A stretch of 64,000 bases of DNA from Bacteroidota bacterium. GTDB lineage: Bacteria; Bacteroidota; Rhodothermia; Rhodothermales; JBCDJV01. The position numbers and the translations under genes are program-made. Shown here piece by piece: positions 42,155 to 63,260 of this stretch; position 1 is the first letter of the stretch; each line of letters starts with the position of its first letter. Under the pieces are notes generated by a model, which ran no database searches, was not told where the DNA came from, and worked only from the letters and a program-made list of their open reading frames with translations. The stretch covers positions 13,470-77,469 of the forward strand of contig JBCDJV010000006.1 in NCBI GenBank assembly GCA_038747425.1, read 5' to 3'.

Positions 42155-43207
42155 CTAGAAGCCGAGGTCCAGGGTGAACCAATGGGTTTGCTCCAGGCGG
42201 CCAAACTCGGCGTAGGCATAGTCCACGCGAGCCCGCAGGCTGCGGTCGATGCGCACGTTGAGGCCGGCGCCCAGGGTGAGCCCTTGTTCGCCGTCTTGCT
42301 CGTACAGGTTTCGGTAGCCCGCGCGGAAGGAGATGAGGTCGCGGAAGGTGTATTCGGCACCGAGGTTGACATACTGCGTGTTGTCATTGGGGTTCGTCGC
42401 GTCCGTCATGGCTACGAAGCGGTGCTCGGCCGTGCTGATGGCATCCCAAGCGAGGCCTACGCGGAACATGAGCGGCAAGGCATGGCGCTCCGTCTGGTAC
42501 TGGGCATTGACGATCTCCACATTGCCCTGCTCGTCCCGAGAGGGGTCCTGGCTGAAGAGGTTGTCTCGCCCGCCCATCTGCATCTTGGAGCCGAAGTTGG
42601 AGATGCTGGCGCCCAGGCGCAGCCGTTCCACCGGGGTTCTGAACAGCGTGCCGATATCCACGGCCACGGCCGTGGCTGCGCTGTGCCAGATCGACTCGCG
42701 GATGAACTTAGCCGACCCCCCGATGGAGAACCGGTCTGTCAGCATGCGGCCATAAGTCACCTGCATGGCCAGGTTCTGCACCGAGAACCGCTCGCCGGTG
42801 CCGTCGGGCTGCCGGGTCGTCCGGACGTCCATCTCGCCCGAGTCAAGCAGCGTCAGGGAGAAGCCCAAGGTGCCGAGTGCCCCGAGATTGATCCCAAAGG
42901 CCGCATAGTTGTAGGTGATGTCGGCCAGGTATTGTGTGTAGTTGAACTGGACCGCGGTGCCGCGCAGGAGGCCCAGGCCCGCTGGGTTCCAGTACATGGC
43001 CGAGAGGTCATTGGCCTCGGCCACAAAGGCGCCGCCCAGGGCCACAGGCCGAGCGCCCACGCCCAGCTTCAAGAACTGAGCGGCGGTGGTCCCGGTCTTG
43101 GTGATGGTGCCTTGGTCCGGGTTGACCGATTGGGCCTGGGCCGTGGAGATGGGCCATGCGGCGAGCCCGATCGAAACGGCACAGAGGAGGAAGAAGCGCT
43201 GTAGCAT
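42155..43207 (-). CDS. PorV/PorQ-family outer-membrane beta-barrel protein
   Basis: Signal peptide. GARPVALGGAFVAEANDLSAMYWNPAGLG signature. Alternating beta-strand pattern ending in ...WFTLDLGF. Confidence 0.7.
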   Translation of the reverse strand: MLQRFFLLCAVSIGLAAWPISTAQAQSVNPDQGTITKTGTTAAQFLKLGVGARPVALGGAFVAEANDLSAMYWNPAGLGLLRGTAVQFNYTQYLADITYNYAAFGINLGALGTLGFSLTLLDSGEMDVRTTRQPDGTGERFSVQNLAMQVTYGRMLTDRFSIGGSAKFIRESIWHSAATAVAVDIGTLFRTPVERLRLGASISNFGSKMQMGGRDNLFSQDPSRDEQGNVEIVNAQYQTERHALPLMFRVGLAWDAISTAEHRFVAMTDATNPNDNTQYVNLGAEYTFRDLISFRAGYRNLYEQDGEQGLTLGAGLNVRIDRSLRARVDYAYAEFGRLEQTHWFTLDLGF

Positions 43208-43236
43208 GATGGCGTCGGTTCGTCTGTGTTCGATCG

Positions 43237-46650: not shown

Positions 46651-46706
46651 CTTCAATAAAGTTAGGCTCACCTTGCTAAAGAGTCTTGAGAGGCATCGTG
46701 GTCAAG

Positions 46707-47216
46707 ATGCCAGTACCTATGCGACGCACACAGCGCCTGCCCCAGTACGATTATCGGGCGTCCGGGGCGTACTTCGTGACCTGCTGCCTGCGCCCCAGGC
46801 GCCCGGTGTTCGGCCGGGTAACGCGGGTCGGGGTGCACCTCAGCCCCACCGGCTACCTCGCCGACGGTTGCTGGGAGGCCATCCCGGTGCATCACCCGCA
46901 CGTCCGCCTGGACGCCTTTGTCGTGATGCCGGATCACATCCATGGCCTGCTGTGGATCGAGCCGAGTCCGGTTACGTCGCGCGGTGCCTTCCGGCCGCGC
47001 ACCTTCGGGACGTCGCACGCGGGGTCGTTGTCGGTCGTCATCGGCACGTACAAGGCCGCCGTCACGCGGAGCGCCCGGCGCCAAGGCCTCGACCTCCCGA
47101 ACTGGCAGCCTCGTTTCTACGAGCACATCGTCCGCAACGAACGCGCGCTGCATGCCATCCGGCGCTACATCCGCGCCAACCCCCAGCGGTGGTTCGACCG
47201 GTACGGCGCAGGATAA
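46707..47216 (+). CDS. REP-associated tyrosine transposase (RAYT; IS200/Y1_Tnp-like HUH enzyme)
   Basis: RLPQYDYRASGAYFVTCC. HUH motif in VVMPDHIHGLLW. Catalytic-Tyr context QPRFYEHIVRNE. An alternative TTG start is at 46686. Confidence 0.8.
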   Translation: MPVPMRRTQRLPQYDYRASGAYFVTCCLRPRRPVFGRVTRVGVHLSPTGYLADGCWEAIPVHHPHVRLDAFVVMPDHIHGLLWIEPSPVTSRGAFRPRTFGTSHAGSLSVVIGTYKAAVTRSARRQGLDLPNWQPRFYEHIVRNERALHAIRRYIRANPQRWFDRYGAG

Positions 47217-47253
47217 CGCGCCCGCCGAACCGCCCCGCCCGTTGCCGCCGAAG

Positions 47254-47281
47254 GTAGGGACACGATATATCGTGTCCCTAC
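47254..47281. repeat. REP-like perfect 28-bp palindrome with GTAG head (GTAGGGACACGATAT|ATCGTGTCCCTAC)
   Basis: Read directly. It lies 38 nt after the RAYT stop codon. Confidence 0.8.
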
Positions 47282-47284
47282 TAC

Positions 47285-47374
47285 GGCGGTACCGAATGCC
47301 GTTGGCGTGGGGCCGATCGCCGTCGGGGCGGTACCGAATGCCGCGGGCGTCTGGCCGGGCGCCATCGGGGCGGG
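47285..47374. repeat. Two 42-bp tandem direct repeats plus a 6-nt start of a third (GGCGGTACCGAATGCCG...)
   Basis: Units 47285-47326 and 47327-47368 match at 35/42 positions. The third unit is truncated (GGCGGG at 47369-47374). Confidence 0.7.
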
Positions 47375-47398
47375 TCTGTATGTATCTGCGGGCGGTCA

Positions 47399-50173
47399 TT
47401 AGAATGACAACGTGGCGCCGACGCGGATCTCGCGGGGGGCGCTGTACCAATGGGGGCGGACGTTGTATTCGTCGAGGGTAGAGATCCCGGGGAAGCCATA
47501 GTAGGGCTCCCAGGTCGCATGCAGGTTGCGCTGCTCGGCGAGCGAGTAGGTTGCGCGCCCGGTGTCGTCGAAGACAAAGCGCTCGTTCAGGCGGTCCAGG
47601 ATGTTGAAGATACGGGCGAAGACCCGCACCCCCGTGCCTCCGAAGTCAAAGTCTTTGTAGAGGTTGGCATCCAGACGGATCTGCGCAGGCTTCCGCTCTG
47701 AGTTGGGCAGCAGATCCAGCACCTGGTCAAAGATCAGCGGCGAGTAGGGGTACCCGGTGGCGTACTGCCCAATGAACGAGGCGCCCCAGTTGCCCACATC
47801 CGTAATGGTGACCGTGCCGGAGAGGACATGCCGCTGATCGAAGTCGAGCGGAACCACTTCCAGTTCGTTCTCCCGTCCGGAGAGCGAGTTGAAGAAGAAG
47901 GCGTTCGAGTCCGTGTTGTTGCCCTCGGCGATCTGGAACGTGTAGTCCACCGTGGCGCTGACGAGCCCGTTCTGCGAGCGGCGCTTCGTCATGGACACCG
48001 TCACGCCCTTCACATTGGCGTAGTCGCGGTTGAGGAAGATGGAGTACTGGTCTTCGCCAGCGATGGTGCTGTAGCGAATCGTCTGCTGGGCCAGGTAGTC
48101 TCGGATGTCTTTGAAGAAGCCGGTGACGTCGAACGCAAACACATCGGTCAGCTGCTGCTGCAAGCCCATCTCGTACTGCACCGTCCGCTCTGGGCGCATG
48201 TTGCTGTTGCCGAAGAGAGGAACAGACCCGCGTGGGAATTCGAACTCCGGATTGATGTACAGATTGCGCAGCCGTGGCATCTGGGCGAAGTGTCCGTACG
48301 AGAAGTGGATAATGCCACGCTCGGTGATCGGGAAAGAGACGCCCAGGCGTGGGAGGAGCAGGGTGCTCGTCTCGGCCGCTTGGCGCTCGCCGAAGGGGTC
48401 CAGCAGGTCGGGGAAGAAGACGCCGTTTGGCTGGAAGTACTCGAAGCGAAGGCCGGCGTTGATGATGAAGTCATCGAATTCCAGCTTGTCCTGCAGGTAG
48501 GCGCTCAGCTCCGTGACGTTCTGGTTGGTGTAGACGTCGCGCGAAGGCGAGTCGATGGGCGGCAGGGTGGGCTCACGGAAGCGGTTGCCGTCGAAGAGCA
48601 CGGCGAAGTTCTCACGGTCCAGGCTGTGCAGGTTGAGCTCAATCCCCGCCTTGGCCTCGTGGATCACCCCAAACTGGCGGGTGGCATCGAGCTTGGCCCG
48701 GAACGAGCGCGCATCCTCGTAGATGTGCGTCTTCTGGTTGCCGCCCATCAAGAAGTTGGTGCCGGGGAAGCCGTTCAGGTTGCCGTTGCCGATGCCCGCG
48801 CGGTCCACCACGTACCGAGGGTCCGTAGGGTCCCGGTACAGAAACTCCCGATAGGCGTTGTTGGCGTAGGAGAGGCGCAGCGTGTAGAACGAGCGGTCGT
48901 CCAGCGTGTGGGTCCAGTGGACGCTATGGTTGTAGCTCCGGTCTCGGACGGTGCGCACTCCGTCTGGATTGAGGCGGTAGGAGAAGCTGAACGGCGTGCG
49001 CTCAGCGCCGTCGCGCAGGTGCGAGTACTCGATCTTGGCTCCGGGGAAGGGCCGCCACGTCAGCTTGCCCAGAATGTTGTAGCTGTTGCGTGGGTTCATG
49101 GCCACGCTCTCGGTGGGGAGAGGGAGGCCAGGGATGACCGTCGTGGTGCCGTCCTCGTTGACTACCGTCTGGTCTTGGTAGTCCTGGTACGGCCGGCCCT
49201 GGATCTCGTAGTACCACGGGTCTGCGTTGAAGTTGGCCGAATCCGAGGGGGCGAAGAGGCGGGTGCCGAAGATGTGTCCATCGTCCTCGTCGTAGCGGCC
49301 CGACAGGAAAAACTTGACGTTCCGAAACACCGGCACCGGGCCACTCAGCGAGCCTTCCAGCGTGAATACATTCAGGCTCCGGCTGCTGGGTGTGCCAAAG
49401 ATATCGCTGTGGGCCGTGAACGTGTCGCCGCCATAGGCGCTCAGCGAGCCCTCCATCCGGTCGCCCCCTTCCTTGGTGACGAGGTTCACGATACCGGACA
49501 TCGCTTTGCCATACTCGGCGTTGAAGGCGCCTGAGATGACGGTCAGTTCCTGGATGGCATCGCGGGCTACCTCGGTGGCGAGGCCGTTGGTGTTGAACGG
49601 GTTGCCCACGGACATGCCGTCCACCAGGTAGGCGATCTCGTTGTTGCGTCCGCCCCGGATGTGGATAGACCCGTCAGCGCCCGTTGTGACGCCCGCCTGG
49701 GCCGTGAGTATGTCCGTGAAGCTTTCCACCGGCAGTGACTCGATCTCCTCCGCGATCACGGTTTGCTTGGAGGCGGTCAGGTCTTTCTGCACCAGCGGGC
49801 GCTCGGCCTGGACCACCACCTCCTGGCCTTCGATCACGGCCTCGCGCAGGTCCACGTCGTACCGCGTGGTTTGCCCGGTGATCACCTGGATCCCCTCGAT
49901 GCGCTGCGGCTGGAACCCGATGTAGGAGAATTGAAGCGTGTACGTACCCGGCCGCACGTTGACCAGGATGTAGTTGCCATCCAGATCGGTCACGGTCCCT
50001 TGCTCGGTCTCCGTGAGGATCACGTTGACCCCGATCAAGGGGTCGCCGTTGCCGGCATCGGTCACGCGGCCTGCAATCTTGCCTTGGGCGAACAGGGCGT
50101 CGGGCAGCAGAAAAAAGCACGCGAAGAGCCCTATGAGGGCCCCGGTCATTGGTCTCGACATGGGACGGATCAT
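47399..50173 (-). CDS. TonB-dependent receptor with N-terminal carboxypeptidase-regulatory-like domain
   Basis: GKIAGRVTDAGNGDPLIGVNVIL...DLDGNY.L.NV.PGTYTL.FSYIGF. Plug domain (IHIRGGRNNEIAYLVDGMSV). C-terminal ...RVGATLSF. Start ambiguous (ATG 50173, 50161 or 50149). Confidence 0.85.
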   Translation of the reverse strand: MIRPMSRPMTGALIGLFACFFLLPDALFAQGKIAGRVTDAGNGDPLIGVNVILTETEQGTVTDLDGNYILVNVRPGTYTLQFSYIGFQPQRIEGIQVITGQTTRYDVDLREAVIEGQEVVVQAERPLVQKDLTASKQTVIAEEIESLPVESFTDILTAQAGVTTGADGSIHIRGGRNNEIAYLVDGMSVGNPFNTNGLATEVARDAIQELTVISGAFNAEYGKAMSGIVNLVTKEGGDRMEGSLSAYGGDTFTAHSDIFGTPSSRSLNVFTLEGSLSGPVPVFRNVKFFLSGRYDEDDGHIFGTRLFAPSDSANFNADPWYYEIQGRPYQDYQDQTVVNEDGTTTVIPGLPLPTESVAMNPRNSYNILGKLTWRPFPGAKIEYSHLRDGAERTPFSFSYRLNPDGVRTVRDRSYNHSVHWTHTLDDRSFYTLRLSYANNAYREFLYRDPTDPRYVVDRAGIGNGNLNGFPGTNFLMGGNQKTHIYEDARSFRAKLDATRQFGVIHEAKAGIELNLHSLDRENFAVLFDGNRFREPTLPPIDSPSRDVYTNQNVTELSAYLQDKLEFDDFIINAGLRFEYFQPNGVFFPDLLDPFGERQAAETSTLLLPRLGVSFPITERGIIHFSYGHFAQMPRLRNLYINPEFEFPRGSVPLFGNSNMRPERTVQYEMGLQQQLTDVFAFDVTGFFKDIRDYLAQQTIRYSTIAGEDQYSIFLNRDYANVKGVTVSMTKRRSQNGLVSATVDYTFQIAEGNNTDSNAFFFNSLSGRENELEVVPLDFDQRHVLSGTVTITDVGNWGASFIGQYATGYPYSPLIFDQVLDLLPNSERKPAQIRLDANLYKDFDFGGTGVRVFARIFNILDRLNERFVFDDTGRATYSLAEQRNLHATWEPYYGFPGISTLDEYNVRPHWYSAPREIRVGATLSF

Positions 50174-50345
50174 GGTGGAGGGAGCGGATCCACGGCGGAA
50201 GCCTTCAAGAAGCCTCAGGATACGCAAAACGAGATTGGGAAAGGGTCCCAATAGAGATGCCCAGTGGCTGGTAGCGAAAGAAAAGGGGGGCGTCTGAGCG
50301 CGAGGGCAGGCGGCCTGTCGGCTCACGCTCAGACACCCACGTCCG

Positions 50346-52016
50346 CTATTTGAGGAGGGTCATGCGGCGCGTCTGCCGCTGCTGTGACGTCTCCAGCGCA
50401 TACAGGTAGACGCCGCTGCTCACGAGCTGCCCGGCGTCGTTGCGACCGTTCCACTGGACCTCGTAGCTGCCTGGCGACGAAGCCTGGCCGTCAACCAACG
50501 TGCGCACGAGCTGGCCCATCACGTTGTAGACCCGCACCGAGACCACGTCGGCCTGGGGCAACACGTAGGAGATGGACGTGCTGGGGTTGAACGGGTTGGG
50601 ATAGTTCTGGCGCAAGATATAGGCGCCCGGGAGCTCGGCTACATCGTCTGTGGACGTCGCCTCAGCTTGGGCCTCGACCACGATGATCATCGGTTGCCCG
50701 GGAGACGAGGCGAACAAGTTGGTCAGCACGACTTCGTTGAGGCCATCCCCATCGAGGTCATCGGTGACGGTCATCGGGTAGTAGCGGTCCAACGGCTCGC
50801 CCACGCTCTCGAGCAGGGAGCTCCAGGTGTAGCTCGTCGAATCGGCGTAGCTGCCGGTGCCATTGTACTCGATGCGGGAGACGATTTCGGCGGTGCCGTG
50901 CGAGGCCACGATGTCCACGTTGCCGTCGCCATCGATGTCGCCCATGGCGCCTCCGCGCGCACTGCCGGTGGCATCGAACATGCCGATGGTGGTGAAGCTC
51001 TCGAACGTCAGGGTGGACACGTCGTCCAGGCTGTCCAAGAAATACAGGTTGCCATCGGTCATCGGATAAAACAGCTCCAGGCTGCCGTCGCCGTCCACGT
51101 CGTCGAACAGCATATCATGCGAGTTGAACCCGCCGGGGTCGTCCACGGGGTTGACGCCGTTAAGCTCAGCCTGTAGCTCGTAGGTGTCGGCCCCGGTGGC
51201 TTCCCAGACTGCCATGCTGAAGTTGTCCCACGTGTTGACCCAGATCTCGTTGAGGCCGTCGCCGTCGAAGTCAGCCACGTCCACGTCGTAGACGCCGCCG
51301 CCGCCCAAGATGGCTTCCCCGGCTTCGAACTCGATGCTGAAGGTGGCGAAGGCGTTGAGGTCGCCGTTGACGGTGGCCACCACGAGCTCGCGAGCCCCGC
51401 TCCGGCGAGACACCGTCAGGAGCTCCTGCGTGCCGTCGTTGTCCACGTCCACGATTTGGAAGCCAGCCGGCCGGAAATCGGCGCTGCCCTCCCGGTCATA
51501 GCCCCAGACGGCCGTCGGCTCATCCGGGAAGACGCCGGAGTCGTCTTGCTCAAACACAAAGAGGTCTTCGGCATCGTCATTGATGGTGGGCACGCCGAAG
51601 TAGATCTCGTTGAGGCCATCCCCATCGATGTCGCCATGGCCGAGTGCGGGGAGGGAGTTGGAGGGGATGTGCGAGTAGTGCCACACGTACTCATACGTGT
51701 TGTCGGCGGTGGCTTCGTAGAGGTAGACATCCAGGACGCCGGGGTCAGGGCCTTCAGGCGCTAGGGTTTCGTCGGTGGTGAAGAGAATTTCCTTGAGACC
51801 GTCCCCGTCCAGGTCCATCCCGGCTTGGACGCTGCGGGCGCCGAAGGCGGGGCCTCGGGGGAAGAGGTCCGGGAAATCACGTGGATCGAGGGTCCAGGAG
51901 ACGGTCAGGTCCGAGCCCGGCACATACTGGGCCACGGCGGGGGCGGCTGAGAGGCCCGTCATCAGACCAACGAGAAGGGTGCAAACGAAAAGTCGACCTG
52001 GTAGCGTACGACGCAT
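50346..52016 (-). CDS. FG-GAP/VCBS-repeat protein with T9SS C-terminal sorting domain
   Basis: Repeated D.DGDG..E(I/L) Ca-binding turns. CTD is NYPNPFNPSTSISYVLP...VRVYNVMGQLV...SGVYLYAL...MTLLK. Confidence 0.8.
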   Translation of the reverse strand: MRRTLPGRLFVCTLLVGLMTGLSAAPAVAQYVPGSDLTVSWTLDPRDFPDLFPRGPAFGARSVQAGMDLDGDGLKEILFTTDETLAPEGPDPGVLDVYLYEATADNTYEYVWHYSHIPSNSLPALGHGDIDGDGLNEIYFGVPTINDDAEDLFVFEQDDSGVFPDEPTAVWGYDREGSADFRPAGFQIVDVDNDGTQELLTVSRRSGARELVVATVNGDLNAFATFSIEFEAGEAILGGGGVYDVDVADFDGDGLNEIWVNTWDNFSMAVWEATGADTYELQAELNGVNPVDDPGGFNSHDMLFDDVDGDGSLELFYPMTDGNLYFLDSLDDVSTLTFESFTTIGMFDATGSARGGAMGDIDGDGNVDIVASHGTAEIVSRIEYNGTGSYADSTSYTWSSLLESVGEPLDRYYPMTVTDDLDGDGLNEVVLTNLFASSPGQPMIIVVEAQAEATSTDDVAELPGAYILRQNYPNPFNPSTSISYVLPQADVVSVRVYNVMGQLVRTLVDGQASSPGSYEVQWNGRNDAGQLVSSGVYLYALETSQQRQTRRMTLLK

Positions 52017-52157
52017 GCAGAAGCTCCTGTCTCAGTGAGACATGCTAAGGAGGGGAACGAGCGGAGAAGTAACAGAGAGGTGAAGTTGTAAAAACAGCAG
52101 AGGGAGGGACTAATGCAAGTCCCTCCCTCTGCGGTAGGCCGTTGAATGGAGGTGCCG

Positions 52158-54017
52158 TTACTTGATGAGCACCATGGAGCGGCTTTGGCGGAAGCTGCCC
52201 CATTCCAAGCTGTACAGGTAGGTGCCACTGGCCACGGTGGCGCCTGCATTGTTGGTGCCGTCCCACGTGACCTGGTGCGTGCCGGCAGCGTAGCGCTGAC
52301 CGTCGATCAGGGTTTTCACGAGGCGCCCGGTCACGTCGTAGACCCGCACGCTGACCGCCTTGTCGATGGGCAGCGTGAAGTCAAACGAGGTGGTCGGGTT
52401 GAACGGGTTCGGGTAGTTGCCGGACAGTTTGTAGTCAGACGGCAAGATGATGCGCTCGTCCTGCACAGACACCGAAGTGCCATCTCCCGAGATGACCCGC
52501 AGGTAGACACGGTTCTCGTTCACACGGGATTCCACGGTCTCGCGCACGAAGGCGGAGTCGGACGGGCTGTAGGTGGACTGGATCACAAACGTAGAGTCAT
52601 CCACGCCCTGGAACGCCAGGGCCACCTCGTTTTGGCCGTCGTTGTCCGGATCCCCGAGATAGGCCAACTTGGACACGAAGACGGGCCCCTGTGTGGGGTT
52701 CTCGAGGAACTCCGTCATGACGCCGGCGGAGTCCTGCCGGATCAGGTTGAAGGTGGTGGCCGTGGTGTCGTACGGCTGGGTGATGTCCAGCGACTCCACC
52801 TCCGAGTAGTTGGCCGGGTCTTCGGGGTCACCGCCCAAGAACTCGGTCACCCGCACGTACTGCGTGGGCGCTCCCTGGCTGCCGGCCGAGTAGGAGGGAC
52901 CACTCCCGATGAGCTCGATCTGGCCATCGCCATCAATGTCGCCTGCGGTCAGGCCCAGGCTGGTGAGTGTCGGGGCCAGGCCCAGAACAACGTTGTCCGG
53001 CGTGATCTGCAGCGGATCCTCGCCCTCCTCGTAGTTGAGCAGGGTCACGCTATTGGTCTGGAACGTCGGGAAGAAGACCTCGTCATCGCCGTTGCCATCG
53101 ATGTCCACCACAACCCCACCGAAGAGCGAGACATGGTCCGCATCGGACGCATTCAAGAACCCGTTGGCGTCCGTCTCGCCGGGAAAGACGTACGTGTCAG
53201 CGCCGGTGATGTCGCCGGTGGTGAGGTTGAAGTTATTCCACGAGTGCAAGGCGAGCTCAACCGTGCCGTCGCCATCGAGGTCAGCGGGATGGATGGCATA
53301 GGGGCTGCCACCCCCACGCGCTACCGGATCATAGTCCGTGACGCGGCTGGACAGACGGGCTTCGACGTTGAAGAATTCGAACCCACTGCCAATGTCGCCG
53401 CCGACAGAGAGGACGTACCAGCTGTCGAAGTCATTGTTGGCGCCGTTGTTACCGAACATGAGCTCTTCGGTGCCATCGCCATCGACGTCTTGGATGATCA
53501 TCTGCTCGGCGCGCCAGCGGTCCGGTAGGTCCACATCGAACGTGTAGATGGTAGTGGGCTCGGTGCCAAAGTCGGTGCCGTTGAATTCGAAGACGAAGAG
53601 GCCCGGCTCGTAGGGGCCGGTCTCGGAGTAGTTGCGTCCAGACAGGAAGACGATTTCGCCGTTACCGTCGCCGTCCAGGTCACCCCCGGCGATGGTGCGG
53701 ATGTTGTTGGTGGTAGCCGTGGAGTCTAGCCAAGGCGTCATGTAGGCCAGCTCCCAGGTATCGACGCCCACGTTCTCGATCACGTGCACGCGGCCGCCGC
53801 CGGTGTAGTCGGCGAGGAGGATTTCGAGTTGCCCATCACCGTCCAGATCGTGCGGGCCGCTCACGTCACGAGCACCGGAGCTCAGTCCGCTGGTGTAGGG
53901 GGCCATGAAGTCCTCGGAGGTCGGCACGTTGAGCTCGAGCTCCGTGGACTGAGACCATGCCGGGGCCACAAGCAGGCACAGTCCAAGTAAAGAGAAGAGA
54001 ATGGTAGCGTTACGCAT
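52158..54017 (-). CDS. FG-GAP/VCBS-repeat protein with T9SS C-terminal sorting domain (paralog of 50346-52016)
   Basis: Same repeat type (DLDGDGQLEIL, DVDGDGTEEL, DIDGNGDDEV, DIDGDGQIEL). CTD is NYPNPFNPTTSFDFTLP...VRVYDVTGRLV...SGTYLYSL...MVLIK. Confidence 0.8.
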   Translation of the reverse strand: MRNATILFSLLGLCLLVAPAWSQSTELELNVPTSEDFMAPYTSGLSSGARDVSGPHDLDGDGQLEILLADYTGGGRVHVIENVGVDTWELAYMTPWLDSTATTNNIRTIAGGDLDGDGNGEIVFLSGRNYSETGPYEPGLFVFEFNGTDFGTEPTTIYTFDVDLPDRWRAEQMIIQDVDGDGTEELMFGNNGANNDFDSWYVLSVGGDIGSGFEFFNVEARLSSRVTDYDPVARGGGSPYAIHPADLDGDGTVELALHSWNNFNLTTGDITGADTYVFPGETDANGFLNASDADHVSLFGGVVVDIDGNGDDEVFFPTFQTNSVTLLNYEEGEDPLQITPDNVVLGLAPTLTSLGLTAGDIDGDGQIELIGSGPSYSAGSQGAPTQYVRVTEFLGGDPEDPANYSEVESLDITQPYDTTATTFNLIRQDSAGVMTEFLENPTQGPVFVSKLAYLGDPDNDGQNEVALAFQGVDDSTFVIQSTYSPSDSAFVRETVESRVNENRVYLRVISGDGTSVSVQDERIILPSDYKLSGNYPNPFNPTTSFDFTLPIDKAVSVRVYDVTGRLVKTLIDGQRYAAGTHQVTWDGTNNAGATVASGTYLYSLEWGSFRQSRSMVLIK

Positions 54018-58871: not shown

Positions 58872-59477
58872 ATGCCTGAAATCCCCGAGTACTACAAACA
58901 CCTCGCTAGCCAGAAAAAAGAGGCGCCCCCTCCGCGCCCAAGCCGCGAGCAGCCGGCGCGGCCGACGCCGACCGGCCCTGCACCCATGGGGGCTGCCTAT
59001 CGGGCTCAGACGTTTGATCTGCGCCTGGCGGAGGGCTGGGACGATCAGACGGTCTACACCCTGCTGGGGCCTGTAGAAGACGATGTACAGCACAACGTCA
59101 CGGTTGTCGTGGGGTCCGATATCAACGAAGAGATGACCCTGATCGAGTTCGCTCAGACGCACATTCAAACCGTGGAGCAGCAGCTCAAAGGGTGCCGGGT
59201 TCTTCTCAAAGAACGCGTGGCGTTGGCGAGCGGCCGCCCGGCGGTGCGCGCCATCTACGTCTGGTATCCCACGGAAGAGGTGCGCCTGTACCAGGAGCAG
59301 CTGTACATCCTCGACACGCCCCGCAGCTACATTCTCACGGCTTCGTTTTCAAAAAAGACACGCAAAACGCTGGGCCCAGCCGTCGAGCGCATGATGCTGA
59401 GCTTTGAGCCACACGATCCGGCCCGGCATCAACCTCCCCCTGCACGCTCGGATGGGGCCTACGCCTACCGTCGCTGA
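58872..59477 (+). CDS. Cytoplasmic DUF1795 (DcrB/Eag-like) domain protein with Pro-rich N-terminal extension
   Basis: No signal peptide. The core F.L.LAEGWDDQTVYTLLGP.....HNVTVVVGSDINEEMTLIEFAQTHIQTVEQQLKGCRVLLKERVALASGRPAVRAIYVWYP.EEVRLYQEQLYIL....SYILTASF follows the DUF1795 pattern (f.lP.gW.D.sv....p......l.i.r......tl.e....q...l...l.g.......................q.q......). Confidence 0.6.
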   Translation: MPEIPEYYKHLASQKKEAPPPRPSREQPARPTPTGPAPMGAAYRAQTFDLRLAEGWDDQTVYTLLGPVEDDVQHNVTVVVGSDINEEMTLIEFAQTHIQTVEQQLKGCRVLLKERVALASGRPAVRAIYVWYPTEEVRLYQEQLYILDTPRSYILTASFSKKTRKTLGPAVERMMLSFEPHDPARHQPPPARSDGAYAYRR

Positions 59478-59519
59478 GCAGGATGCCTTCTCCCTTTGCC
59501 ACCACGCTGTTGTAGTCAC

Positions 59520-61406
59520 ATGGACGCCCCCTCCAAACGCGGTCAGTTCACCATTACCTCCACCCCAGACGAGACTCGTGTCGTGCGGGAGGCCCCCGCC
59601 GAGGCCCGCGAAGAGGTGGCCTTGCCGCTGCGCCTGCTGTTCGTGAGCGACCTCCTCCCTCACCGATCGGCGCCCAACTGGGAGGAGGGCACCCACCGTG
59701 TGCGGGTGGACCCGTACCGGTACACGGATCTGATGCAGTCGTATGCCCCTCGGTTGGACATCACCGTGCCCAACCGGCTGAGTGAGACGCCCAGCCACCT
59801 GGAGCTGGAATTGACCGTGACCAGCCTCAAAGGACTGCGGCCGGATCGCCTCCTGAGCCAGATCCCTGAGCTGACCCGGCTCACGGCCATCCGAGGCCTT
59901 GTGGGGCAAGTCCAGGAGAAGCAGCTCGGGTTGGATCGATTCAAGGCCGAGTTGAAGGCCATCGGCGTCGAGGCTGCCTGGGCCGCTCAGCTGTACGATG
60001 CTCTCGCCCAGCCGCCCGCCGCCCCTCCACCATCCCGTAGCACCTCCTCGGCCGCGCCCTCCTCAGACGATGCAGCCTTGGACCGCTTGTTTTCGATGGT
60101 CGATGTAGAGGGGGACAGCGAGGACGAGGCGCCGCCGGCGCCAGAGGCAGAATCGGGGACGGGCGGTATGCTCATGGATGCCCTCATGGGCGCCGTCACC
60201 GGTTCGAGTGCACCGTCCGCGCGCGTCAAACAGGACGCCGCCACCCTGATGCTGGACGATCTGGACACCACGATCCAAGCGCAGCTTAACGAGGTGATGA
60301 GCCACCCGGCTGTCCGAGCGCTGGAACGTTCGTGGCGCAGCCTCAAGCTGCTCGTGGACCGGCTGGACATGCGGCGTGGGATCCAACTGGAGGTGCTGGC
60401 TGCCGCGAAAGACGACCTCAGCGAGGCGCTGTACCATCAGGTCCTGATGCCAGAGCACGCGGCCACGGACCCGTCGCATGTACCGCTGGCCGCCATCGTC
60501 CTCGACACGGACTTCTCCCATACCAACGCTGACCTCGAATTGCTAGCCGACCTGGCGGAGACCTGTGCGAGCTTGCAGGTGCCGTTGCTGGCGGGCGTGG
60601 AGGCCTCCTTCTTTGGTGTTGAGACGCCGACCGGCCTCAACAAGCTGCCGCTGCTGTGGCAGCATCTCCAAGGCTATGCCTATGCGGAGTGGAATGCGCT
60701 CCGGAAGAAGCCTGAGGCCTCCTACGTGTCCCTGTTTGTGCCTCCCCTCCTGCTCCGCGCGCCCTACGGACCGGACCACAGCGCCGGGCTGCCGTTCGAG
60801 GAAGACGGATACGTGTGGGGATCAGGAGCCTTGGCGGCGGCCATCATGATGGGGCAGAGCTTTGCCCAGACCGGATGGCCAACGCATCTGGGTAGCACGA
60901 AGCACCATCGCCTCCAAGACATGCCGACCTGGCCCAGCCAGCAGGGGGCCATCTCGGTGGCTGCGCTCATCAACGAAGACAAGCAGGTCGAGCTGGCGCA
61001 ATCTGGCTTCGGGGTGCTGAGCGGCCGACCGAACCAAGACGTGGTCTACCTGGCGCAAAGCCCCACCCTCGCCGACCTCGAAGCCGGGGCCGAGGCCGAG
61101 ATGACCACCGCGTCCCTGGCGGGCCAGCTGTTCGCCTCACGAATGGCTCAACTCTTGCTGCGCTACCAGCAAGCACTGCCCGCTGGTACCTCCACGGCCT
61201 CAGCCCAAGCCGATCTGCAACATCGGCTGGCTCACCTGTTCGGGGTTGGGGAGGAGCAAGAAGAGGTCTTCCGCGTGCAACCCGTACCCGAGCTGGCGAC
61301 GGCGGCCTACGAGGTCCTGGCGGTGGTGCTGCACCCCCCAGAGACCGTGGTGCCCCGGTCGGTCCGGCTCACGTTGGCCGTTCAGGTGACCAAGGCCAGC
61401 GGCTGA
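59520..61406 (+). CDS. T6SS contractile-sheath-like protein: single-polypeptide TssB(VipA)-TssC(VipB) fusion
   Basis: The N-terminal part resembles TssB: EEVALPLRLLFVSDL......VPNRL....LELELTVTSLKGLRPDRLLSQIPELTRLTAIRGL. This compares with VipA ELPLKLLAIGDY...VPNRL...L.F.SLKDF.P..V..QVPEL..LL.LR. A ~75-aa P/S/A/D/E-rich linker follows. The C-terminal part resembles TssC: LDDLDTTIQAQLNEVMSHPAVRALERSWRSLKLLV..., ...AEWNALRKKPEASYVSLFVPPLLLRAPYG, ...YVWGSGALAAAIMMGQSFAQTGW, ...LFASRMAQLLL. ATG at 59520. Confidence 0.75.
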   Translation: MDAPSKRGQFTITSTPDETRVVREAPAEAREEVALPLRLLFVSDLLPHRSAPNWEEGTHRVRVDPYRYTDLMQSYAPRLDITVPNRLSETPSHLELELTVTSLKGLRPDRLLSQIPELTRLTAIRGLVGQVQEKQLGLDRFKAELKAIGVEAAWAAQLYDALAQPPAAPPPSRSTSSAAPSSDDAALDRLFSMVDVEGDSEDEAPPAPEAESGTGGMLMDALMGAVTGSSAPSARVKQDAATLMLDDLDTTIQAQLNEVMSHPAVRALERSWRSLKLLVDRLDMRRGIQLEVLAAAKDDLSEALYHQVLMPEHAATDPSHVPLAAIVLDTDFSHTNADLELLADLAETCASLQVPLLAGVEASFFGVETPTGLNKLPLLWQHLQGYAYAEWNALRKKPEASYVSLFVPPLLLRAPYGPDHSAGLPFEEDGYVWGSGALAAAIMMGQSFAQTGWPTHLGSTKHHRLQDMPTWPSQQGAISVAALINEDKQVELAQSGFGVLSGRPNQDVVYLAQSPTLADLEAGAEAEMTTASLAGQLFASRMAQLLLRYQQALPAGTSTASAQADLQHRLAHLFGVGEEQEEVFRVQPVPELATAAYEVLAVVLHPPETVVPRSVRLTLAVQVTKASG

Positions 61407-61485
61407 CCTGTGTCTTTTCAGGGCACCGCCGGTGGCGGAGCGCCTCTGTTCCACCTGCATGTTGCCGCCCACGTCGACCTTGCCG

Positions 61486-63174
61486 ATGCCACCTCGCCTC
61501 GCGATTCAGGAACAGGACGGCTCCGGGCCGATCCGGACCTTCGATGCCTCCTTCACGATGGGTCGCAGTGAAGACTGCGAATACCCCGTGCCGTTGCCCA
61601 TCGTCAGCCGCCGGCATACCACGGTAGAGCTTGATAGCCAGGGCTGGCTGGTTCGAGACCTGGGCAGCGCCAATGGCACGTACCTGGACGGCAAGCGGGT
61701 GCGTGACGCGCGCCTTGAGGGCGAACACGTCCTCAAGTTGGGCAACCGCGGGCCCGCCTTCACCGTGTCGCTGGTGGACACAGCGGCGGCTTCTTCTGGG
61801 CGTGACGCCCCGGCCAGCCGGCCCGCCCCGTCCCGGCGTGCCGACCGCCTCGCCTCGCCGACCTCGATCACCGAAGCCTCGGCGGCAACCTCTGTGGAGA
61901 CGCCAGGTCCCGCCGAGCGGAGCACAGCGGCCCGGGGCCCAGAGCCCCCGGCGGGACGCCGTGGGGCCAACGAGGGCCGGTCCCTGAGCGAGTACATGGA
62001 ACACTACTTCGGCGAGTCCGGGCAGCCCGCTGGGGAGCACACGCAGATGATCCGGCAGGCCTACCAGGTCGTCGAACAGAAGAAGCGGGTCCGGTTCATC
62101 TATATCTTGGCGGCCTTGGGCGTGGTGGTGGTGCTCGTCGGGGGGTATGCCATCTACCAGCGCATGGAGCGGGCCGAGCTGGAGACGTTAGCGCTGGAGG
62201 CGTTCGAAGACGTGCGCCGCCAGAATGCCAGCATCCTCCAGGCACAAAATGCCATCGCGTTGAAAGCCGGGGAGCCGGATGCGACGCTCCAGGACATCAT
62301 CCGTGACCTGCAGCAGACCCGCGAGCGGCAGCTGGATCGCTACGACAACTTCGTGGAAGAACTGGGCTACCGACGGGCGCCCACGGCTGAGGAGCGGGCC
62401 ATCTACCGGGTGGCCCGCATCTTCAACGAAAGCGAGATACAAAGCGCCATCCCCGCCGATTTCATCCGGTCTGTGCGAGATACCATCGCCATCTGGCAAT
62501 CGAGCAACCGGTTTCAGCGGGCGGTGGAGCGGGCCAACCGCCTCGGCTACACGCCGATGATCGTGGAGACCTTCCGCAAGTATGGACTCCCCCCGGAGTT
62601 TTTCTACCTGTCCATGCAGGAGAGCAACTTCAACGAGCGGGCGATTGGGCCTCGCACCCGGTGGGGGATTGCCAAGGGCATGTGGCAGTTCATCCCGAGT
62701 ACAGGGGAAGCCTACGGCCTCGCCATTGGACCTCGGGATGACCTCCGCTCGTTCGACCCGCAGGACGACCGGTTCGACCCCGCGAAGGCCACAGACGCCG
62801 CCGCACGCTACCTGCTGGAAATCCACAGCCAGCTCTCGGGAGCTTCTAGCCTGTTGGCGATGGCCTCGTACAACTGGGGCGAGCGCCGCGTCGTACCCCG
62901 TCTGCAAGATATGCTGGCCGAAAACGGCATCACCGACGAGACCGATGAGGTCTCCGACCGTTCGTACTGGGCGTTCTACAAGAAGTACGGCCGCATCATG
63001 CCTGACGAGACCAAAGGGTACGTGGCGCGCATCTTTGCCGCGGCGGTGATCGGGCAAGATCCCCAGCTCTGGGGCTACGACATGGAGAACCCCTTGCTGC
63101 CGTATCTGGAAGGGGGCGCTTCGGTGGATACCACTCCCCGTGCGGCCGAGGCCGAGGCGGACGGGGACCTGTGA
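61486..63174 (+). CDS. FHA domain - transmembrane - lytic transglycosylase (SLT) domain protein
   Basis: FHA: FTMGRSEDCEYPVPLPIVSRRHTTVELDSQGWLVRDLGSANGTYLDGKRV. Then a S/P/A-rich spacer and a TM segment FIYILAALGVVVVLVGGYAIY. SLT motifs: YLSMQESNFN, GIAKGMWQFIPSTG, MASYNWGE. The start lies between GTG 61432 and ATG 61486. Confidence 0.8.
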   Translation: MPPRLAIQEQDGSGPIRTFDASFTMGRSEDCEYPVPLPIVSRRHTTVELDSQGWLVRDLGSANGTYLDGKRVRDARLEGEHVLKLGNRGPAFTVSLVDTAAASSGRDAPASRPAPSRRADRLASPTSITEASAATSVETPGPAERSTAARGPEPPAGRRGANEGRSLSEYMEHYFGESGQPAGEHTQMIRQAYQVVEQKKRVRFIYILAALGVVVVLVGGYAIYQRMERAELETLALEAFEDVRRQNASILQAQNAIALKAGEPDATLQDIIRDLQQTRERQLDRYDNFVEELGYRRAPTAEERAIYRVARIFNESEIQSAIPADFIRSVRDTIAIWQSSNRFQRAVERANRLGYTPMIVETFRKYGLPPEFFYLSMQESNFNERAIGPRTRWGIAKGMWQFIPSTGEAYGLAIGPRDDLRSFDPQDDRFDPAKATDAAARYLLEIHSQLSGASSLLAMASYNWGERRVVPRLQDMLAENGITDETDEVSDRSYWAFYKKYGRIMPDETKGYVARIFAAAVIGQDPQLWGYDMENPLLPYLEGGASVDTTPRAAEAEADGDL

Positions 63175-63260
63175 ACAACTCTTGACGCCGGGGTGGAAGG
63201 CCTAACCTGACCCCCAAGGTCCCGTAGAGCGAGCTCTACGTTTTCCTATGGGGCCTTCCT

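What the first reader, a model, noticed from the sequence alone, without database searches (positions are those of the whole stretch)
58872..63174. Orphan three-gene T6SS-sheath-like module (DUF1795/Eag-like + TssB-TssC fusion + FHA-TM-SLT) with no tube, spike, baseplate or membrane-complex genes
Seen: three co-oriented, closely spaced genes with gaps of about 43 and 26-80 nt. They are set off from the neighbours by 237 and 87 nt. Gene 1 is a cytoplasmic DUF1795-type protein. Gene 2 joins recognisable TssB/VipA and TssC/VipB sequence signatures in one 628-aa polypeptide. Gene 3 has an N-terminal FHA domain, one TM helix and a periplasmic family-1 lytic transglycosylase domain. Established: TssB and TssC are separate proteins that co-polymerise into the T6SS contractile sheath. 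FHA proteins (Fha/TagH) gate T6SS assembly via Thr phosphorylation. Lytic transglycosylases are recruited to let T6SS span the wall. DUF1795/Eag proteins chaperone T6SS effectors. No hcp, vgrG/PAAR, tssE/F/G/K, tssA, clpV, tssJLM or Bacteroidota tssN-R homolog is recognisable anywhere in the 64 kb. The flanks are tatD and two-component sensors. Inference: this is either a minimal, previously undescribed sheath-derived machine, or a displaced fragment of a T6SS encoded elsewhere. A sheath-derived machine could be, for example, a phospho-regulated cytoplasmic polymer tethered to a wall-remodelling enzyme.
Basis: partly seen in the sequence, partly recalled or inferred. Interest (0 to 1): 0.85.

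Follow-up and report, generated by a model that had tools for sequence, protein, structure and literature searches.

The report
Detached T6SS accessory module, not orphan
The three genes are real, but they are not a stand-alone machine: they are the split-off tail of an ordinary type VI secretion gene cluster, and they include an extra, naturally fused copy of the two sheath proteins whose role nobody has worked out.

Summary
Three co-oriented genes encode a DUF1795/Eag-like protein, a 628-aa TssB–TssC fusion, and an FHA–TM–SLT protein. No other T6SS gene lies in the 64 kb.

The "orphan machine" reading does not hold.
- In 24 related loci the fusion is followed directly by the FHA–SLT gene (20/20 where visible), usually then by PP2C and a Ser/Thr kinase.
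- The pair sits at the 3' end of canonical T6SS clusters that already carry separate tssB, tssC, hcp, tssE/F/G, clpV, vgrG and PAAR.
- So the fusion is an additional sheath paralogue, not the sheath.
- In the closest relative, Roseithermus, the orthologous trio ends the T6SS cluster, and the syntenic tatD site is empty.
- The window's own organism has a T6SS ClpV. By NCBI accession order it lies 52 protein genes upstream on the same 88.9-kb contig, just beyond the window's left edge.

Best reading: a relocated T6SS accessory module. The single-chain sheath paralogue keeps the inter-subunit strands and a ClpV-helix-like motif. It probably acts as a specialised sheath subunit working with a membrane-anchored FHA/lytic-transglycosylase. 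Its role is uncharacterised. The closest known analogue is Agrobacterium TssC40/ImpD.

The parts
58872..59477 (+). g1: cytoplasmic DUF1795/DcrB-family (Eag-type chaperone-like) protein, 201 aa, with a Pro-rich N-terminal 45 aa
   Evidence: Pfam DcrB E 7e-10. The best solved relatives are EagT6/PA0094, weakly (E 0.006). No hydrophobic segment. 57% identical to the Roseithermus DcrB gene in the T6SS cluster tail. NCBI MEM1125566.1, 'DcrB-related protein'.
59520..61406 (+). g2: single-chain TssB-TssC sheath paralogue, 628 aa (an alternative TTG start lies at 59496)
   Evidence: Pfam VipA + VipB. Below the NCBIfam equivalog cut-offs for TssB and TssC. AF2 model pLDDT 84, pTM 0.81. Foldseek TM-scores normalised to the target are 0.74-0.78 to VipB/TssC chains and about 0.7 to VipA chains. 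Colinear with TssB+TssC concatenates. NCBI MEM1125567.1.
59547..60020 (+). g2 TssB-like part (aa 10-167), including the N-terminal strand region and the LPLRLL motif
   Evidence: Alignment with canonical TssB. Pfam T6SS_VipA aa 35-167.
60021..60227 (+). g2 linker (aa 168-236): Pro/Ser/Ala-rich and predicted disordered. It replaces the TssB stop and the TssC start.
   Evidence: pLDDT below 50 for aa 174-185 and 190-236. 15 Ser/Thr in 69 aa.
60075..60104 (+). Conserved short motif ALDRLFSMVD (aa 186-195) inside the linker. It aligns with the N-terminal ClpV-binding helix region of canonical TssC (SLLDSIL...).
   Evidence: D188, L190 and V194 are at least 90% conserved in 32 family members. Column alignment with canonical TssC N-termini. 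[quoted passage not shown] ClpV binding by this motif is an inference.
60228..61403 (+). g2 TssC-like part (aa 237-628), including the WRSLKLLVDR motif and a C-terminal strand region
   Evidence: Pfam VipB aa 253-522. About 411 aligned columns against the 432-residue VipB chain 3j9g_2. The C-terminus aligns with canonical TssC C-termini.
61432..63174 (+). g3: bitopic inner-membrane protein with a cytoplasmic FHA domain, one TM helix and a periplasmic family-1 lytic transglycosylase domain, 580 aa
   Evidence: Pfam FHA + SLT. TM segment found. Directly downstream of the fusion in 20/20 related loci. NCBI MEM1125568.1.
61555..61743 (+). g3 FHA domain (aa 42-104). The GR...SRRH...NG phosphothreonine-binding signature is present.
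   Evidence: Pfam. Sequence read directly. PDB FHA matches: Rv0020c/TB39.8, Rv1747, GarA.
62095..62157 (+). g3 transmembrane helix (aa 222-242), preceded by KKRVR (positive-inside, so the FHA domain is cytoplasmic)
   Evidence: Kyte-Doolittle 19-residue maximum of 2.50 at aa 223.
62578..62892 (+). g3 SLT domain (aa 383-487). It has the catalytic Glu397 in the ES motif (62620-62622), a GMWQF motif and an SYNWG motif.
   Evidence: Pfam SLT E 1.7e-17. Motifs read in the sequence.
63223..63250 (+). Terminator-like hairpin plus T-run after g3, marking the likely end of the three-gene unit
   Evidence: 7-bp stem, 4 GC pairs, tail TTTTCCTATG.

Best explanation
The three genes are the detached 3' tail of a canonical, proteobacterial-type T6SS gene cluster in a Rhodothermales-like bacterium related to Roseithermus. 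g2 is an additional single-chain TssB-TssC paralogue. It co-exists with ordinary separate TssB and TssC and does not replace them. g3 is the cluster's membrane-anchored FHA protein fused to a periplasmic lytic transglycosylase. g1 is an Eag-type (DUF1795) chaperone carried over from the effector region.

Proposed mechanism, all inferred:
- g3 sits in the inner membrane at the T6SS assembly site and opens peptidoglycan with its SLT domain.
- g3 reads a phosphothreonine signal with its cytoplasmic FHA domain. In most relatives the PpkA-like kinase and PppA-like PP2C are encoded next to it.
- g2 keeps the elements a sheath protomer needs: the N-terminal TssB strand, the TssC core, the C-terminal strand and a ClpV-helix-like motif.
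- g2 is incorporated in small numbers as a position-specific sheath subunit, either a baseplate-proximal collar or a distal cap/anchor. It may couple the sheath to g3, and ClpV recycles it.

In this genome a rearrangement has put about 50 housekeeping genes between the module and the T6SS core.
For: SHOWN.
(1) The fusion is followed directly by the FHA-SLT gene in 20/20 related loci. PP2C comes next in 15/17.
(2) VgrG, PAAR, Rhs, DUF2169 or ClpV lie upstream in every locus with enough flank.
(3) Walking upstream from ClpV in two Rhodothermales MAGs and in Roseithermus RA shows TssM-TagF-TssA-TssB-TssC(VipB+VipB_2)-Hcp-TssE-TssF-TssG-ClpV-VgrG-PAAR ahead of the fusion. In Azospirillum the fusion lies between tssC and tssE.
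(4) In Roseithermus the cluster tail is ...997aa-DcrB-203-PGbinding-1414-382-fusion-FHA/SLT. It is joined to the T6SS core by a 98%-identical overlap of two fetched loci.
(5) The syntenic HK-tatD site in Roseithermus has dnaK after tatD and no module.
(6) The window's organism is represented by two MAGs. On an 88,900-bp contig the NCBI protein accessions run TssH/ClpV MEM1125512 ... HK MEM1125564, DcrB ..566, fusion ..567, FHA-SLT ..568. That ClpV is 78% identical over its full length to the Roseithermus T6SS ClpV.
(7) g2 is colinear with TssB+TssC and folds like them.
(8) g2 falls below the NCBIfam equivalog cut-offs. It evolves faster (48-50% identity) than TssC (about 70%) between the same genomes, and at the pace of FHA-SLT (50-55%).
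(9) The FHA pThr-binding residues and the SLT catalytic Glu are intact.

FROM THE LITERATURE. Fha/PpkA/PppA gate T6SS assembly, and lytic enzymes (MltE, TagX) are needed for the membrane complex (PMC13584744). The TssC N-terminal helix recruits ClpV (PMC5048182). A. tumefaciens has a second, non-redundant TssC homologue, TssC40/ImpD, which is essential for Hcp secretion (PMC3702570).
Against: - The T6SS core of the window's own organism was not seen directly.
- In the window and in Roseithermus no PP2C or kinase is adjacent, so the FHA ligand there is unknown.
- No experiment or multimer model shows that g2 enters the sheath or binds g3 or ClpV. Its position-specific role is an analogy with the multiple sheath paralogues of extracellular contractile injection systems.
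- The fast evolution of g2 would also fit a regulatory or decoy role.
- g1 has no client effector nearby.
Confidence: 0.72

Rival explanations
1. Autonomous minimal machine. The fused sheath protein polymerises on its own as a phospho-regulated cytoplasmic filament, tethered through the FHA domain to a wall-remodelling enzyme, and works independently of any T6SS.
For: In this window the trio is isolated. It has its own upstream gap and a terminator-like hairpin, and no T6SS gene lies within 59 kb. g2 is a complete single-chain protomer. The pair has been kept intact after separation from the core.
Against: The pair is embedded in canonical T6SS clusters in all informative related loci. The same organism has a T6SS ClpV on the same contig. 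g2 retains a ClpV-helix-like motif. No locus was found in a demonstrably T6SS-free context.
Confidence: 0.05
2. Relocated main sheath. g2 is the only sheath protein of this organism's T6SS, and the core cluster has lost separate tssB/tssC.
For: g2 has every structural element of TssB+TssC. The core cluster of this particular organism was not seen.
Against: All three Rhodothermales relatives with a visible core, and Azospirillum, keep canonical tssB and tssC alongside the fusion. g2 scores far below the TssB/TssC equivalog cut-offs. It is only 26-30% identical to the Roseithermus TssB and TssC.
Confidence: 0.07
3. Functionless remnant. A rearrangement cut the tail off the T6SS cluster, and the three genes are drifting towards loss.
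For: The module is separated from the core. The PP2C/kinase partners and any effector client for g1 are missing locally.
Against: All three ORFs are intact and full length with gene-like GC3 of 0.74-0.83. The family-invariant residues of g2, the FHA signature and the SLT catalytic Glu are all present. Identity to the Roseithermus orthologues (50-57%) is in the range of a neighbouring orthologous kinase (58%).
Confidence: 0.08
4. Effector-chaperone reading. g3 is a secreted peptidoglycan-degrading T6SS effector whose TM helix is shielded by the Eag-type chaperone g1. g2 is an unrelated neighbour.
For: Eag/DUF1795 chaperones bind effector TM helices. g1's best solved relative is EagT6. g3 has one TM helix and a PG-lytic domain. 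The module lies in or next to the effector region in relatives.
Against: DcrB is adjacent in only 3 of 25 loci, whereas g2-g3 adjacency is 20/20. g3 has no PAAR, Rhs or MIX-type delivery domain and no immunity gene follows it. An N-terminal FHA domain next to PP2C and a kinase marks a resident signalling protein.
Confidence: 0.05

Closest known systems
TssB/TssC (VipA/VipB) contractile sheath of T6SS
   Same: Same two Pfam families and the same fold (TM-scores normalised to the target of 0.74-0.78 for TssC chains and about 0.7 for TssB chains). Colinear from the TssB N-terminus to the TssC C-terminus. The WRGLKxLVDR motif and the N-terminal-helix region are conserved.
   Different: One polypeptide joined by a disordered linker of about 65 aa. 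Four short loops are deleted. The Pfam VipB_2 C-terminal model is not hit. Scores are below the NCBIfam equivalog cut-offs. It is encoded in addition to canonical tssB/tssC, at the far end of the cluster, and evolves faster.
TssC40/ImpD (Atu4340) of Agrobacterium tumefaciens
   Same: A second TssC-like gene in a T6SS cluster that already has TssB and TssC41. It is essential for Hcp secretion, not redundant with TssC41, and does not stabilise TssB (PMC3702570). It is enriched in detergent-resistant membranes with TagH, TagF and TssM (PMC8656257). An Azospirillum fused VipA+VipB protein (P0059) occupies the impD position. In an NJ tree it groups with the Rhodothermales fusions apart from canonical TssBC.
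   Different: The Atu4340 sequence could not be obtained here, so direct homology and a fused architecture are not shown. It sits next to tssC rather than at the cluster end, and no FHA-SLT partner is adjacent.
TagH/Fha with PpkA-PppA (threonine phosphorylation pathway of T6SS)
   Same: An FHA protein encoded beside a PP2C phosphatase and a Hanks-type kinase in T6SS clusters (15/17 relatives). TagF is also present in those clusters.
   Different: g3 lacks the T6SS_FHA_C domain and scores below the TIGR03354 cut-off. It is membrane-anchored and carries a periplasmic SLT domain. In the window no kinase or phosphatase is adjacent.
MltE (EAEC) and TagX (Acinetobacter): peptidoglycan-remodelling enzymes needed for T6SS assembly
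   Same: A wall-cleaving enzyme associated with T6SS assembly. g3 has a family-1 lytic transglycosylase domain, as MltE does (PMC13584744).
   Different: MltE is a housekeeping lipoprotein recruited by TssM. TagX is an L,D-endopeptidase. Neither carries an FHA domain or is paired with a sheath paralogue.
Multiple sheath paralogues of extracellular contractile injection systems (Afp2/3/4, Pvc2/3/4)
   Same: Several sheath-fold proteins in one machine, each a single chain like g2, with minor paralogues at defined positions. This rests on my own knowledge. PDB hits to PVC, AFP and CIS sheaths were found at a lower score.
   Different: g2 is clearly of the T6SS TssB/TssC lineage (21-24% identity to most TssC/VipB chains, 18% to 3j9o), not the eCIS lineage (about 10% identity). 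A positional role is conjecture.
Eag chaperones (EagT6, EagR1; DUF1795)
   Same: Pfam DcrB/DUF1795 above cut-off. Cytoplasmic. Best solved match is EagT6/PA0094.
   Different: No PAAR- or TM-containing effector is encoded next to g1 in the window. The match to EagT6 is weak (E 0.006).

Membership tests
T6SS sheath TssB/TssC (VipA/VipB) | Pfam PF05591 (VipA) and PF05943 (VipB) above gathering score | tested here: met
   64.6 bits against a cut-off of 24, and 157.3 bits against a cut-off of 27
T6SS sheath TssB/TssC (VipA/VipB) | NCBIfam equivalog models TIGR03358 (TssB) and TIGR03355 (TssC) above curated cut-off | tested here: not met
   61.8 bits against 97.25, and 146.9 bits against 271.5
T6SS sheath TssB/TssC (VipA/VipB) | Sheath-protomer fold covering both subunits | tested here: met
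   AF2 pLDDT 84. Foldseek 3j9g_2 E 2e-23, TMt 0.74. 5urw_1B TMt 0.78. VipA chains TMt about 0.7.
T6SS sheath TssB/TssC (VipA/VipB) | Two separate polypeptides encoded by adjacent tssB and tssC near tssA/hcp/tssE | tested here: not met
   Single ORF. Located after the effector region in relatives.
T6SS sheath TssB/TssC (VipA/VipB) | It is the sheath gene of its cluster, with no other tssB/tssC present | tested here: not met
   Canonical tssB and tssC(VipB+VipB_2) co-occur in L020, L021, L022 and L003
T6SS sheath TssB/TssC (VipA/VipB) | Polymerises around Hcp, contracts, and is disassembled by ClpV | not testable with these tools
   Only a conserved motif aligned with the ClpV-binding helix region is available
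TssC40/ImpD-type second TssC | Extra TssC-like gene in a cluster that has a TssB/TssC pair | tested here: met
   in relatives. In the window's own genome only ClpV was seen.
TssC40/ImpD-type second TssC | Sequence homology to Atu4340 closer than to canonical TssC | not tested
The Azospirillum protein at the impD position groups with the fused family.
TagH/Fha of the T6SS threonine phosphorylation pathway | FHA domain with pThr-binding residues | tested here: met
   Pfam FHA 54.6 bits. GR/SRRH/NG residues present.
TagH/Fha of the T6SS threonine phosphorylation pathway | TIGR03354 above cut-off, or the T6SS_FHA_C domain | tested here: not met
   31.8 bits against 120.25. No T6SS_FHA_C hit.
TagH/Fha of the T6SS threonine phosphorylation pathway | Encoded with PpkA-type kinase and PppA-type PP2C | tested here: inconclusive
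   Met in 15/17 relatives. Not met in the window, Roseithermus or the KSB1 locus.
Family-1 lytic transglycosylase (SLT, PF01464) | SLT domain above cut-off with the catalytic Glu in the ES motif | tested here: met
   63.5 bits against 21.3. E397-S398, GMWQF and SYNWG motifs.
Eag/DUF1795 effector chaperone | DUF1795/DcrB domain, cytoplasmic | tested here: met
   39.6 bits against 27.2. No hydrophobic segment. EagT6 is the best PDB hit.
Eag/DUF1795 effector chaperone | Encoded next to a PAAR/prePAAR effector with N-terminal TM helices | tested here: not met
   No such gene in the window. PAAR-related ORFs lie upstream in L010.
Autonomous or orphan contractile system | No T6SS core genes elsewhere in the genome | tested here: not met
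   TssH/ClpV MEM1125512 is on the same 88.9-kb contig and MEM9666293 in the second MAG. It is 78% identical to the Roseithermus T6SS ClpV.

The most novel reading that the evidence does not exclude
The fused TssB-TssC paralogue and the FHA-TM-SLT protein together form a structural element of T6SS that has not been described. This would be a dedicated single-chain sheath collar or cap, physically tethered through an FHA-phosphothreonine contact to an inner-membrane wall-cutting enzyme. Sheath assembly, envelope anchoring and peptidoglycan opening would then be coupled in one phospho-switched unit. The same principle could explain why Agrobacterium needs TssC40. The more extreme version, in which the pair works with no T6SS at all, is not strictly excluded for this genome, but I rate it at about 0.05.
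Probability: 0.3. Interest if true: 0.7.

Novelty: new variant of a known kind. Interest (0 to 1): 0.5.

Why it matters
T6SS sheaths are thought to be built from one TssB/TssC pair. Here a conserved second, naturally fused sheath protomer is always paired with a membrane FHA/lytic-transglycosylase. It occurs in Rhodothermales, with fused relatives in KSB1, Azospirillum and other Pseudomonadota, and 211 representatives (50%-identity clusters) score E ≤ 1e-30, the best of them mostly full-length fusions of about 570-690 aa. This points to an unrecognised accessory layer of T6SS assembly or anchoring. It offers a handle on the unexplained essential TssC40/ImpD of Agrobacterium. It also shows that TssB and TssC tolerate covalent fusion in nature, which is useful for engineering. 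For the scan itself, it is a caution: 'orphan' calls made from a 64-kb window can be edge artefacts, since the T6SS core lies just outside this window.

Tried and rejected
- **Literature.** Searches for natural TssB-TssC fusions, sheath paralogues or T6SS in Rhodothermales found nothing relevant. The 2026 review of T6SS accessory genes lists no sheath paralogue and no FHA-SLT protein.
- **Alignment A1.** The 32-sequence alignment was too diverse for the locus scan. The closer set A2 was used instead.
- **Homologue search.** It did not return the window's own proteins (best hit 49%), although they are in the collection. The organism was identified through the neighbouring kinase.
- **AFDB fold library.** It was unavailable, so Atu4340 (A9CGG4) could not be compared.
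- **PLSDB.** tblastn of the Azospirillum fusion returned 'No match', although the tool works. The window g2 hit only adjacent tssB+tssC pairs, with no fused gene in 72,556 plasmids. The Rhizobium jaguaris and Bradyrhizobium plasmid T6SS clusters have no second TssC.
- **Promoter scan.** The sigma-70 scan found nothing. It does not cover Bacteroidota-type promoters, so this is uninformative.
- **T6SS core of the window's organism.** I could not fetch the 88.9-kb contig because look-ups were exhausted, so the core of this organism is inferred from ClpV alone.
- **Rejected readings.** g2 as the only sheath, an autonomous machine, a pseudogene remnant, and g3 as an effector. See the rival explanations.


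Full report
**1. The observation**

- Three + strand ORFs lie at 58872-59477 (g1, 201 aa), 59520-61406 (g2, 628 aa; an alternative TTG start is at 59496) and 61432-63174 (g3, 580 aa; an alternative ATG start is at 61486).
- Pfam confirms every domain call:
  - g1 is DcrB/DUF1795.
  - g2 has T6SS_VipA (aa 35-167) plus VipB (aa 253-522).
  - g3 has FHA (aa 42-104) plus SLT (aa 383-487), with one strong hydrophobic helix at aa 222-242.
- The KKRVR stretch before that helix places the FHA domain in the cytoplasm and the SLT domain in the periplasm (inference from the positive-inside rule).
- The FHA phosphothreonine-binding signature (GR...SRRH...NG) is intact. So are the SLT catalytic Glu397 (ES motif) and the GMWQF and SYNWG motifs.
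- A terminator-like hairpin follows g3 at 63223-63240.
- I scanned about 42 further genes of the window with Pfam. I also searched the window with T6SS proteins from related loci. No other T6SS or contractile-injection gene is present.
- The flanks are tatD, a PDZ/GAF/LytS-type kinase, and a second LytS-type kinase that runs off the window end.

**2. What g2 is**

- An AlphaFold2 model built on 32 family members is confident (pLDDT 84, pTM 0.81). The exceptions are the first residues and a linker at aa 174-236.
- Foldseek against the PDB gives T6SS sheath chains as the top hits. VipB of 3j9g scores E 2e-23 with a TM-score of 0.74 normalised to the target. M. xanthus TssC scores 0.76-0.78. VipA and TssB chains score about 0.7. 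Phage and eCIS sheaths are much weaker.
- Aligned against concatenated TssB+TssC from T6SS clusters of the same bacterial order, g2 is colinear from end to end. The shared elements are:
  - the N-terminal TssB strand region and the LPLRLL motif;
  - the TssB helical part;
  - a Pro/Ser-rich linker where the TssB stop and TssC start would be;
  - a short conserved motif, ALDRLFSMVD (D188, L190 and V194 at least 90% conserved), in the columns of the canonical TssC N-terminal helix (SLLDSIL...);
  - the WRSLKLLVDR motif, the TssC core, and a C-terminal strand region.
- That N-terminal helix is what recruits ClpV to contracted sheaths (PMC5048182).
- Four short loops of canonical TssC are missing.
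- g2 is thus a complete single-chain sheath protomer.
- It is not an equivalog of TssB or TssC. It scores 61.8 and 146.9 bits against NCBIfam cut-offs of 97.25 and 271.5. It is only 26-30% identical to the canonical TssB and TssC of its closest relative.

**3. The family and its neighbourhood**

- A search of 5.8 billion proteins found 77 relatives. All but three carry both the VipA and VipB Pfam domains. They come mostly from Rhodothermales, Rhodothermia and Bacteroidota MAGs, plus Roseithermus, Rubrivirga, a KSB1 bacterium and Azospirillum.
- An exhaustive HMMER search of 1.84 billion representatives found 211 at E ≤ 1e-30. Most of the 150 best listed are 570-690 aa and match along the full length.
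- I fetched 24 non-redundant related loci and mapped marker proteins onto them.
  - The FHA-SLT gene directly follows the fusion in 20 of 20 loci where the downstream side is visible.
  - A PP2C phosphatase follows in 15 of 17. After it usually come a Hanks-type kinase with PEGA domains and two TPR/CsgG-like proteins.
  - Upstream lie VgrG, PAAR, an Rhs effector, a 342-aa protein and DUF2169 (or a HEAT-like protein).
- I then walked further upstream using ClpV as a handle. This was done in a Rhodothermaceae MAG, a 469-kb MAG contig and Roseithermus RA.
- All three show the full canonical set: TssM-TagF-TssA-TssB-TssC(VipB+VipB_2)-Hcp-TssE-TssF-TssG-ClpV-VgrG-PAAR.
- In Azospirillum the fused gene lies between tssC and tssE, again in addition to tssB and tssC.
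- A shorter, 493-aa fused form in a proteobacterial-type contig lies at the end of a T6SS cluster, next to TagH and PP2C.
- The fused gene is therefore an extra paralogue in T6SS clusters, tightly linked to the FHA-SLT gene. It is not the sheath gene.

**4. The window's own genome**

- The kinase next to tatD is 100% identical to a protein of MAG GCA_039197235.1 ("Bacteroidota bacterium"). There the contig ends inside g3.
- The next best hit, at 58%, is Roseithermus RA.
- Exact look-ups give NCBI accessions on a second assembly's 88,900-bp contig:

| Protein | Accession |
|---|---|
| TssH/ClpV | MEM1125512 |
| Kinase (HK) | MEM1125564 |
| DcrB (g1) | MEM1125566 |
| Fusion (g2) | MEM1125567 |
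| FHA-SLT (g3) | MEM1125568 |

- In the other MAG, ClpV is MEM9666293 and the module is MEM9663515-17.
- The numbering rises with window coordinates. ClpV therefore lies 52 protein genes upstream of the kinase.
- I count roughly 45-47 genes between the window start and the kinase. This puts ClpV a few genes beyond the left edge of the window, about 60 kb from the module.
- That ClpV is 78% identical over all 881 residues to the Roseithermus T6SS ClpV.

**5. The Roseithermus comparison**

- In Roseithermus the trio's orthologues (57%, 50% and 52% identity) close the T6SS cluster. The order is ...ClpV-VgrG-PAAR-953-495-311-997-DcrB-203-PGbinding-1414-382-fusion-FHA/SLT-cydAB.
- A 98%-identical overlap between two fetched loci joins this tail to the core.
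- The kinase-tatD site is otherwise syntenic with the window: LytTR regulator, FG-GAP proteins, TonB-like receptor, a 1139-aa protein and PorV. In Roseithermus it has dnaK after tatD and no module.
- The module has therefore been separated from its cluster by a rearrangement whose breakpoint lies just upstream of the DcrB gene.
- The window's arrangement has no PP2C or kinase and no T6SS gene nearby. It is unique among the 25 loci.

**6. How it most likely works**

*Shown*
- The pair is a conserved T6SS-linked unit.
- g2 has all the sheath-protomer elements.
- g3 has intact FHA and lytic-transglycosylase sites and a bitopic topology.
- Between the same genomes the pair evolves at similar rates: 48-50% identity for the fusion and 50-55% for FHA-SLT. 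This is faster than TssC (about 70%), TssB (about 60%) and TssF (about 57%).

*Established elsewhere*
- Fha/PpkA/PppA gate T6SS assembly by Thr phosphorylation.
- Wall-cleaving enzymes (MltE, TagX) are needed to install the membrane complex (PMC13584744).

*Inferred*
- g3 merges these two accessory functions in one membrane protein at the assembly site.
- g2 is a minor, position-specific sheath subunit, either a baseplate-proximal collar or a distal cap/anchor. It co-assembles with TssB/TssC, may be held or released by g3's FHA domain, and is recycled by ClpV through its retained helix motif.
- The Ser/Thr-rich linker (15 of 69 residues) is a candidate phospho-site region, but no Thr there is conserved.
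- g1 is an Eag-type chaperone. It is adjacent in only 3 of 25 loci and belongs to the variable effector region. Its client here is unknown.

I put 0.72 on "T6SS accessory module detached from its cluster". I put roughly 0.3 on the specific collar/cap-plus-tether mechanism.

**7. Comparison with what is known**

- The closest experimentally studied analogue is TssC40/ImpD of A. tumefaciens. It is a second TssC homologue beside TssB/TssC41. It is essential for Hcp secretion, not redundant with TssC41, and not needed to stabilise TssB (PMC3702570). It is enriched in detergent-resistant membranes with TagH, TagF and TssM (PMC8656257).
- The Azospirillum fused protein occupies the impD position. 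In an NJ tree it groups with the Rhodothermales fusions, apart from canonical TssBC.
- I could not obtain the Atu4340 sequence, so this link is a lead and not a test.
- No paper in the searchable library describes a natural TssB-TssC fusion or an FHA-SLT T6SS protein.
- No fused gene occurs among 72,556 plasmids.

**8. Verdict**

- The sequence features are real and the domain calls are right.
- The headline claim, an orphan sheath-derived machine, is an artefact of the window boundary.
- One correction applies to that alternative: relatives' T6SS clusters keep their own tssB and tssC.
- What remains of interest is the accessory pair itself. It is a new variant within a known kind of system, it is uncharacterised, and it may bear on the TssC40 puzzle.
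- Interest: 0.5.

Noticed in passing
window 478-597 and 881-1000 (+), with 1171-2100, 2141-4243, 4376-4858: Two tandem, near-identical 39-aa ORFs (MKTW[NS]TP[KQ]L[TA]RFGNV[QK]DITAQGNAKPVLGGDLIIAVATS) lie upstream of a 309-aa protein, an ABC exporter (ABC_membrane+ABC_tran) and a transglutaminase-like protein (PF13471, the lasso-peptide B-protease family). This looks like a RiPP or lasso-peptide-type cluster. No cyclase was seen.
   Followed up: partly
window 35689-36480 (-): Microbial rhodopsin gene (Bac_rhodopsin, E 5e-42), next to a HisKA kinase at 36917-38563.
   Followed up: no
window 40428-54017 (-): A block of envelope and T9SS-related genes. It holds an amidase with a Por_Secre_tail, a PorV-like protein, a 1144-aa protein with no Pfam hit, a CarboxypepD_reg/Plug receptor, and two FG-GAP/FlgD_ig proteins with T9SS C-terminal domains. 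It is syntenic with Roseithermus RA.
   Followed up: partly
window 46686-47216 (+): A 176-aa ORF with a weak IS200-like Y1 transposase hit (E 7e-4), between the receptor gene and the 1144-aa gene. Possibly a REP-associated tyrosine transposase.
   Followed up: no
L017/L018 16.6-21.9 kb; also L002, L012, L014, L015, L034, L037: Downstream of the kinase, relatives carry two TPR/CsgG(LpoB)-like proteins, a 550-600-aa FlgD_ig or Ig-repeat protein, and a 362-aa protein with no Pfam hit. This may be an envelope-sensing module feeding the kinase, by analogy with TagQRST.
   Followed up: no
L018 7686-8714, L017 7870-8919, L001 8766-9914, L001 4479-8723: Conserved proteins with no Pfam hit lie just upstream of the fusion. 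One is a 342-349-aa protein between Rhs and DUF2169. Roseithermus instead has 1414-aa and 382-aa proteins with no Pfam hit.
   Followed up: no
L020 5515-5967 versus L021 6186-6659 and L022 5972-6442: Hcp of the BPHM Rhodothermaceae MAG is only 23-29% identical to Hcp of the other two genomes. TssB, TssC and TssF are 56-71% identical, so this Hcp has been replaced or is strongly divergent.
   Followed up: no
L024 10001-11482; P0060-P0077: A shorter class (about 490-516 aa) of proteins with both VipA and VipB Pfam hits occurs in Pseudomonadota-type contigs. One lies at the end of a T6SS cluster after TagH-PP2C-DUF4280. They form a separate branch in the NJ tree.
   Followed up: partly
L020-L022 (Rhodothermales T6SS cores): These Bacteroidota-affiliated genomes carry the proteobacterial-type gene set (TssM/IcmF, TagF, ImpA-type TssA, ClpV).
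   Followed up: no
window 4756-5586 (+) and 6340-7185 (+): An ECF-sigma-like ORF (FQETFYRV..., region-4-like C-terminus) is followed by a coiled-coil protein with a signal-peptide-like N-terminus. Neither was scanned against Pfam.
   Followed up: no
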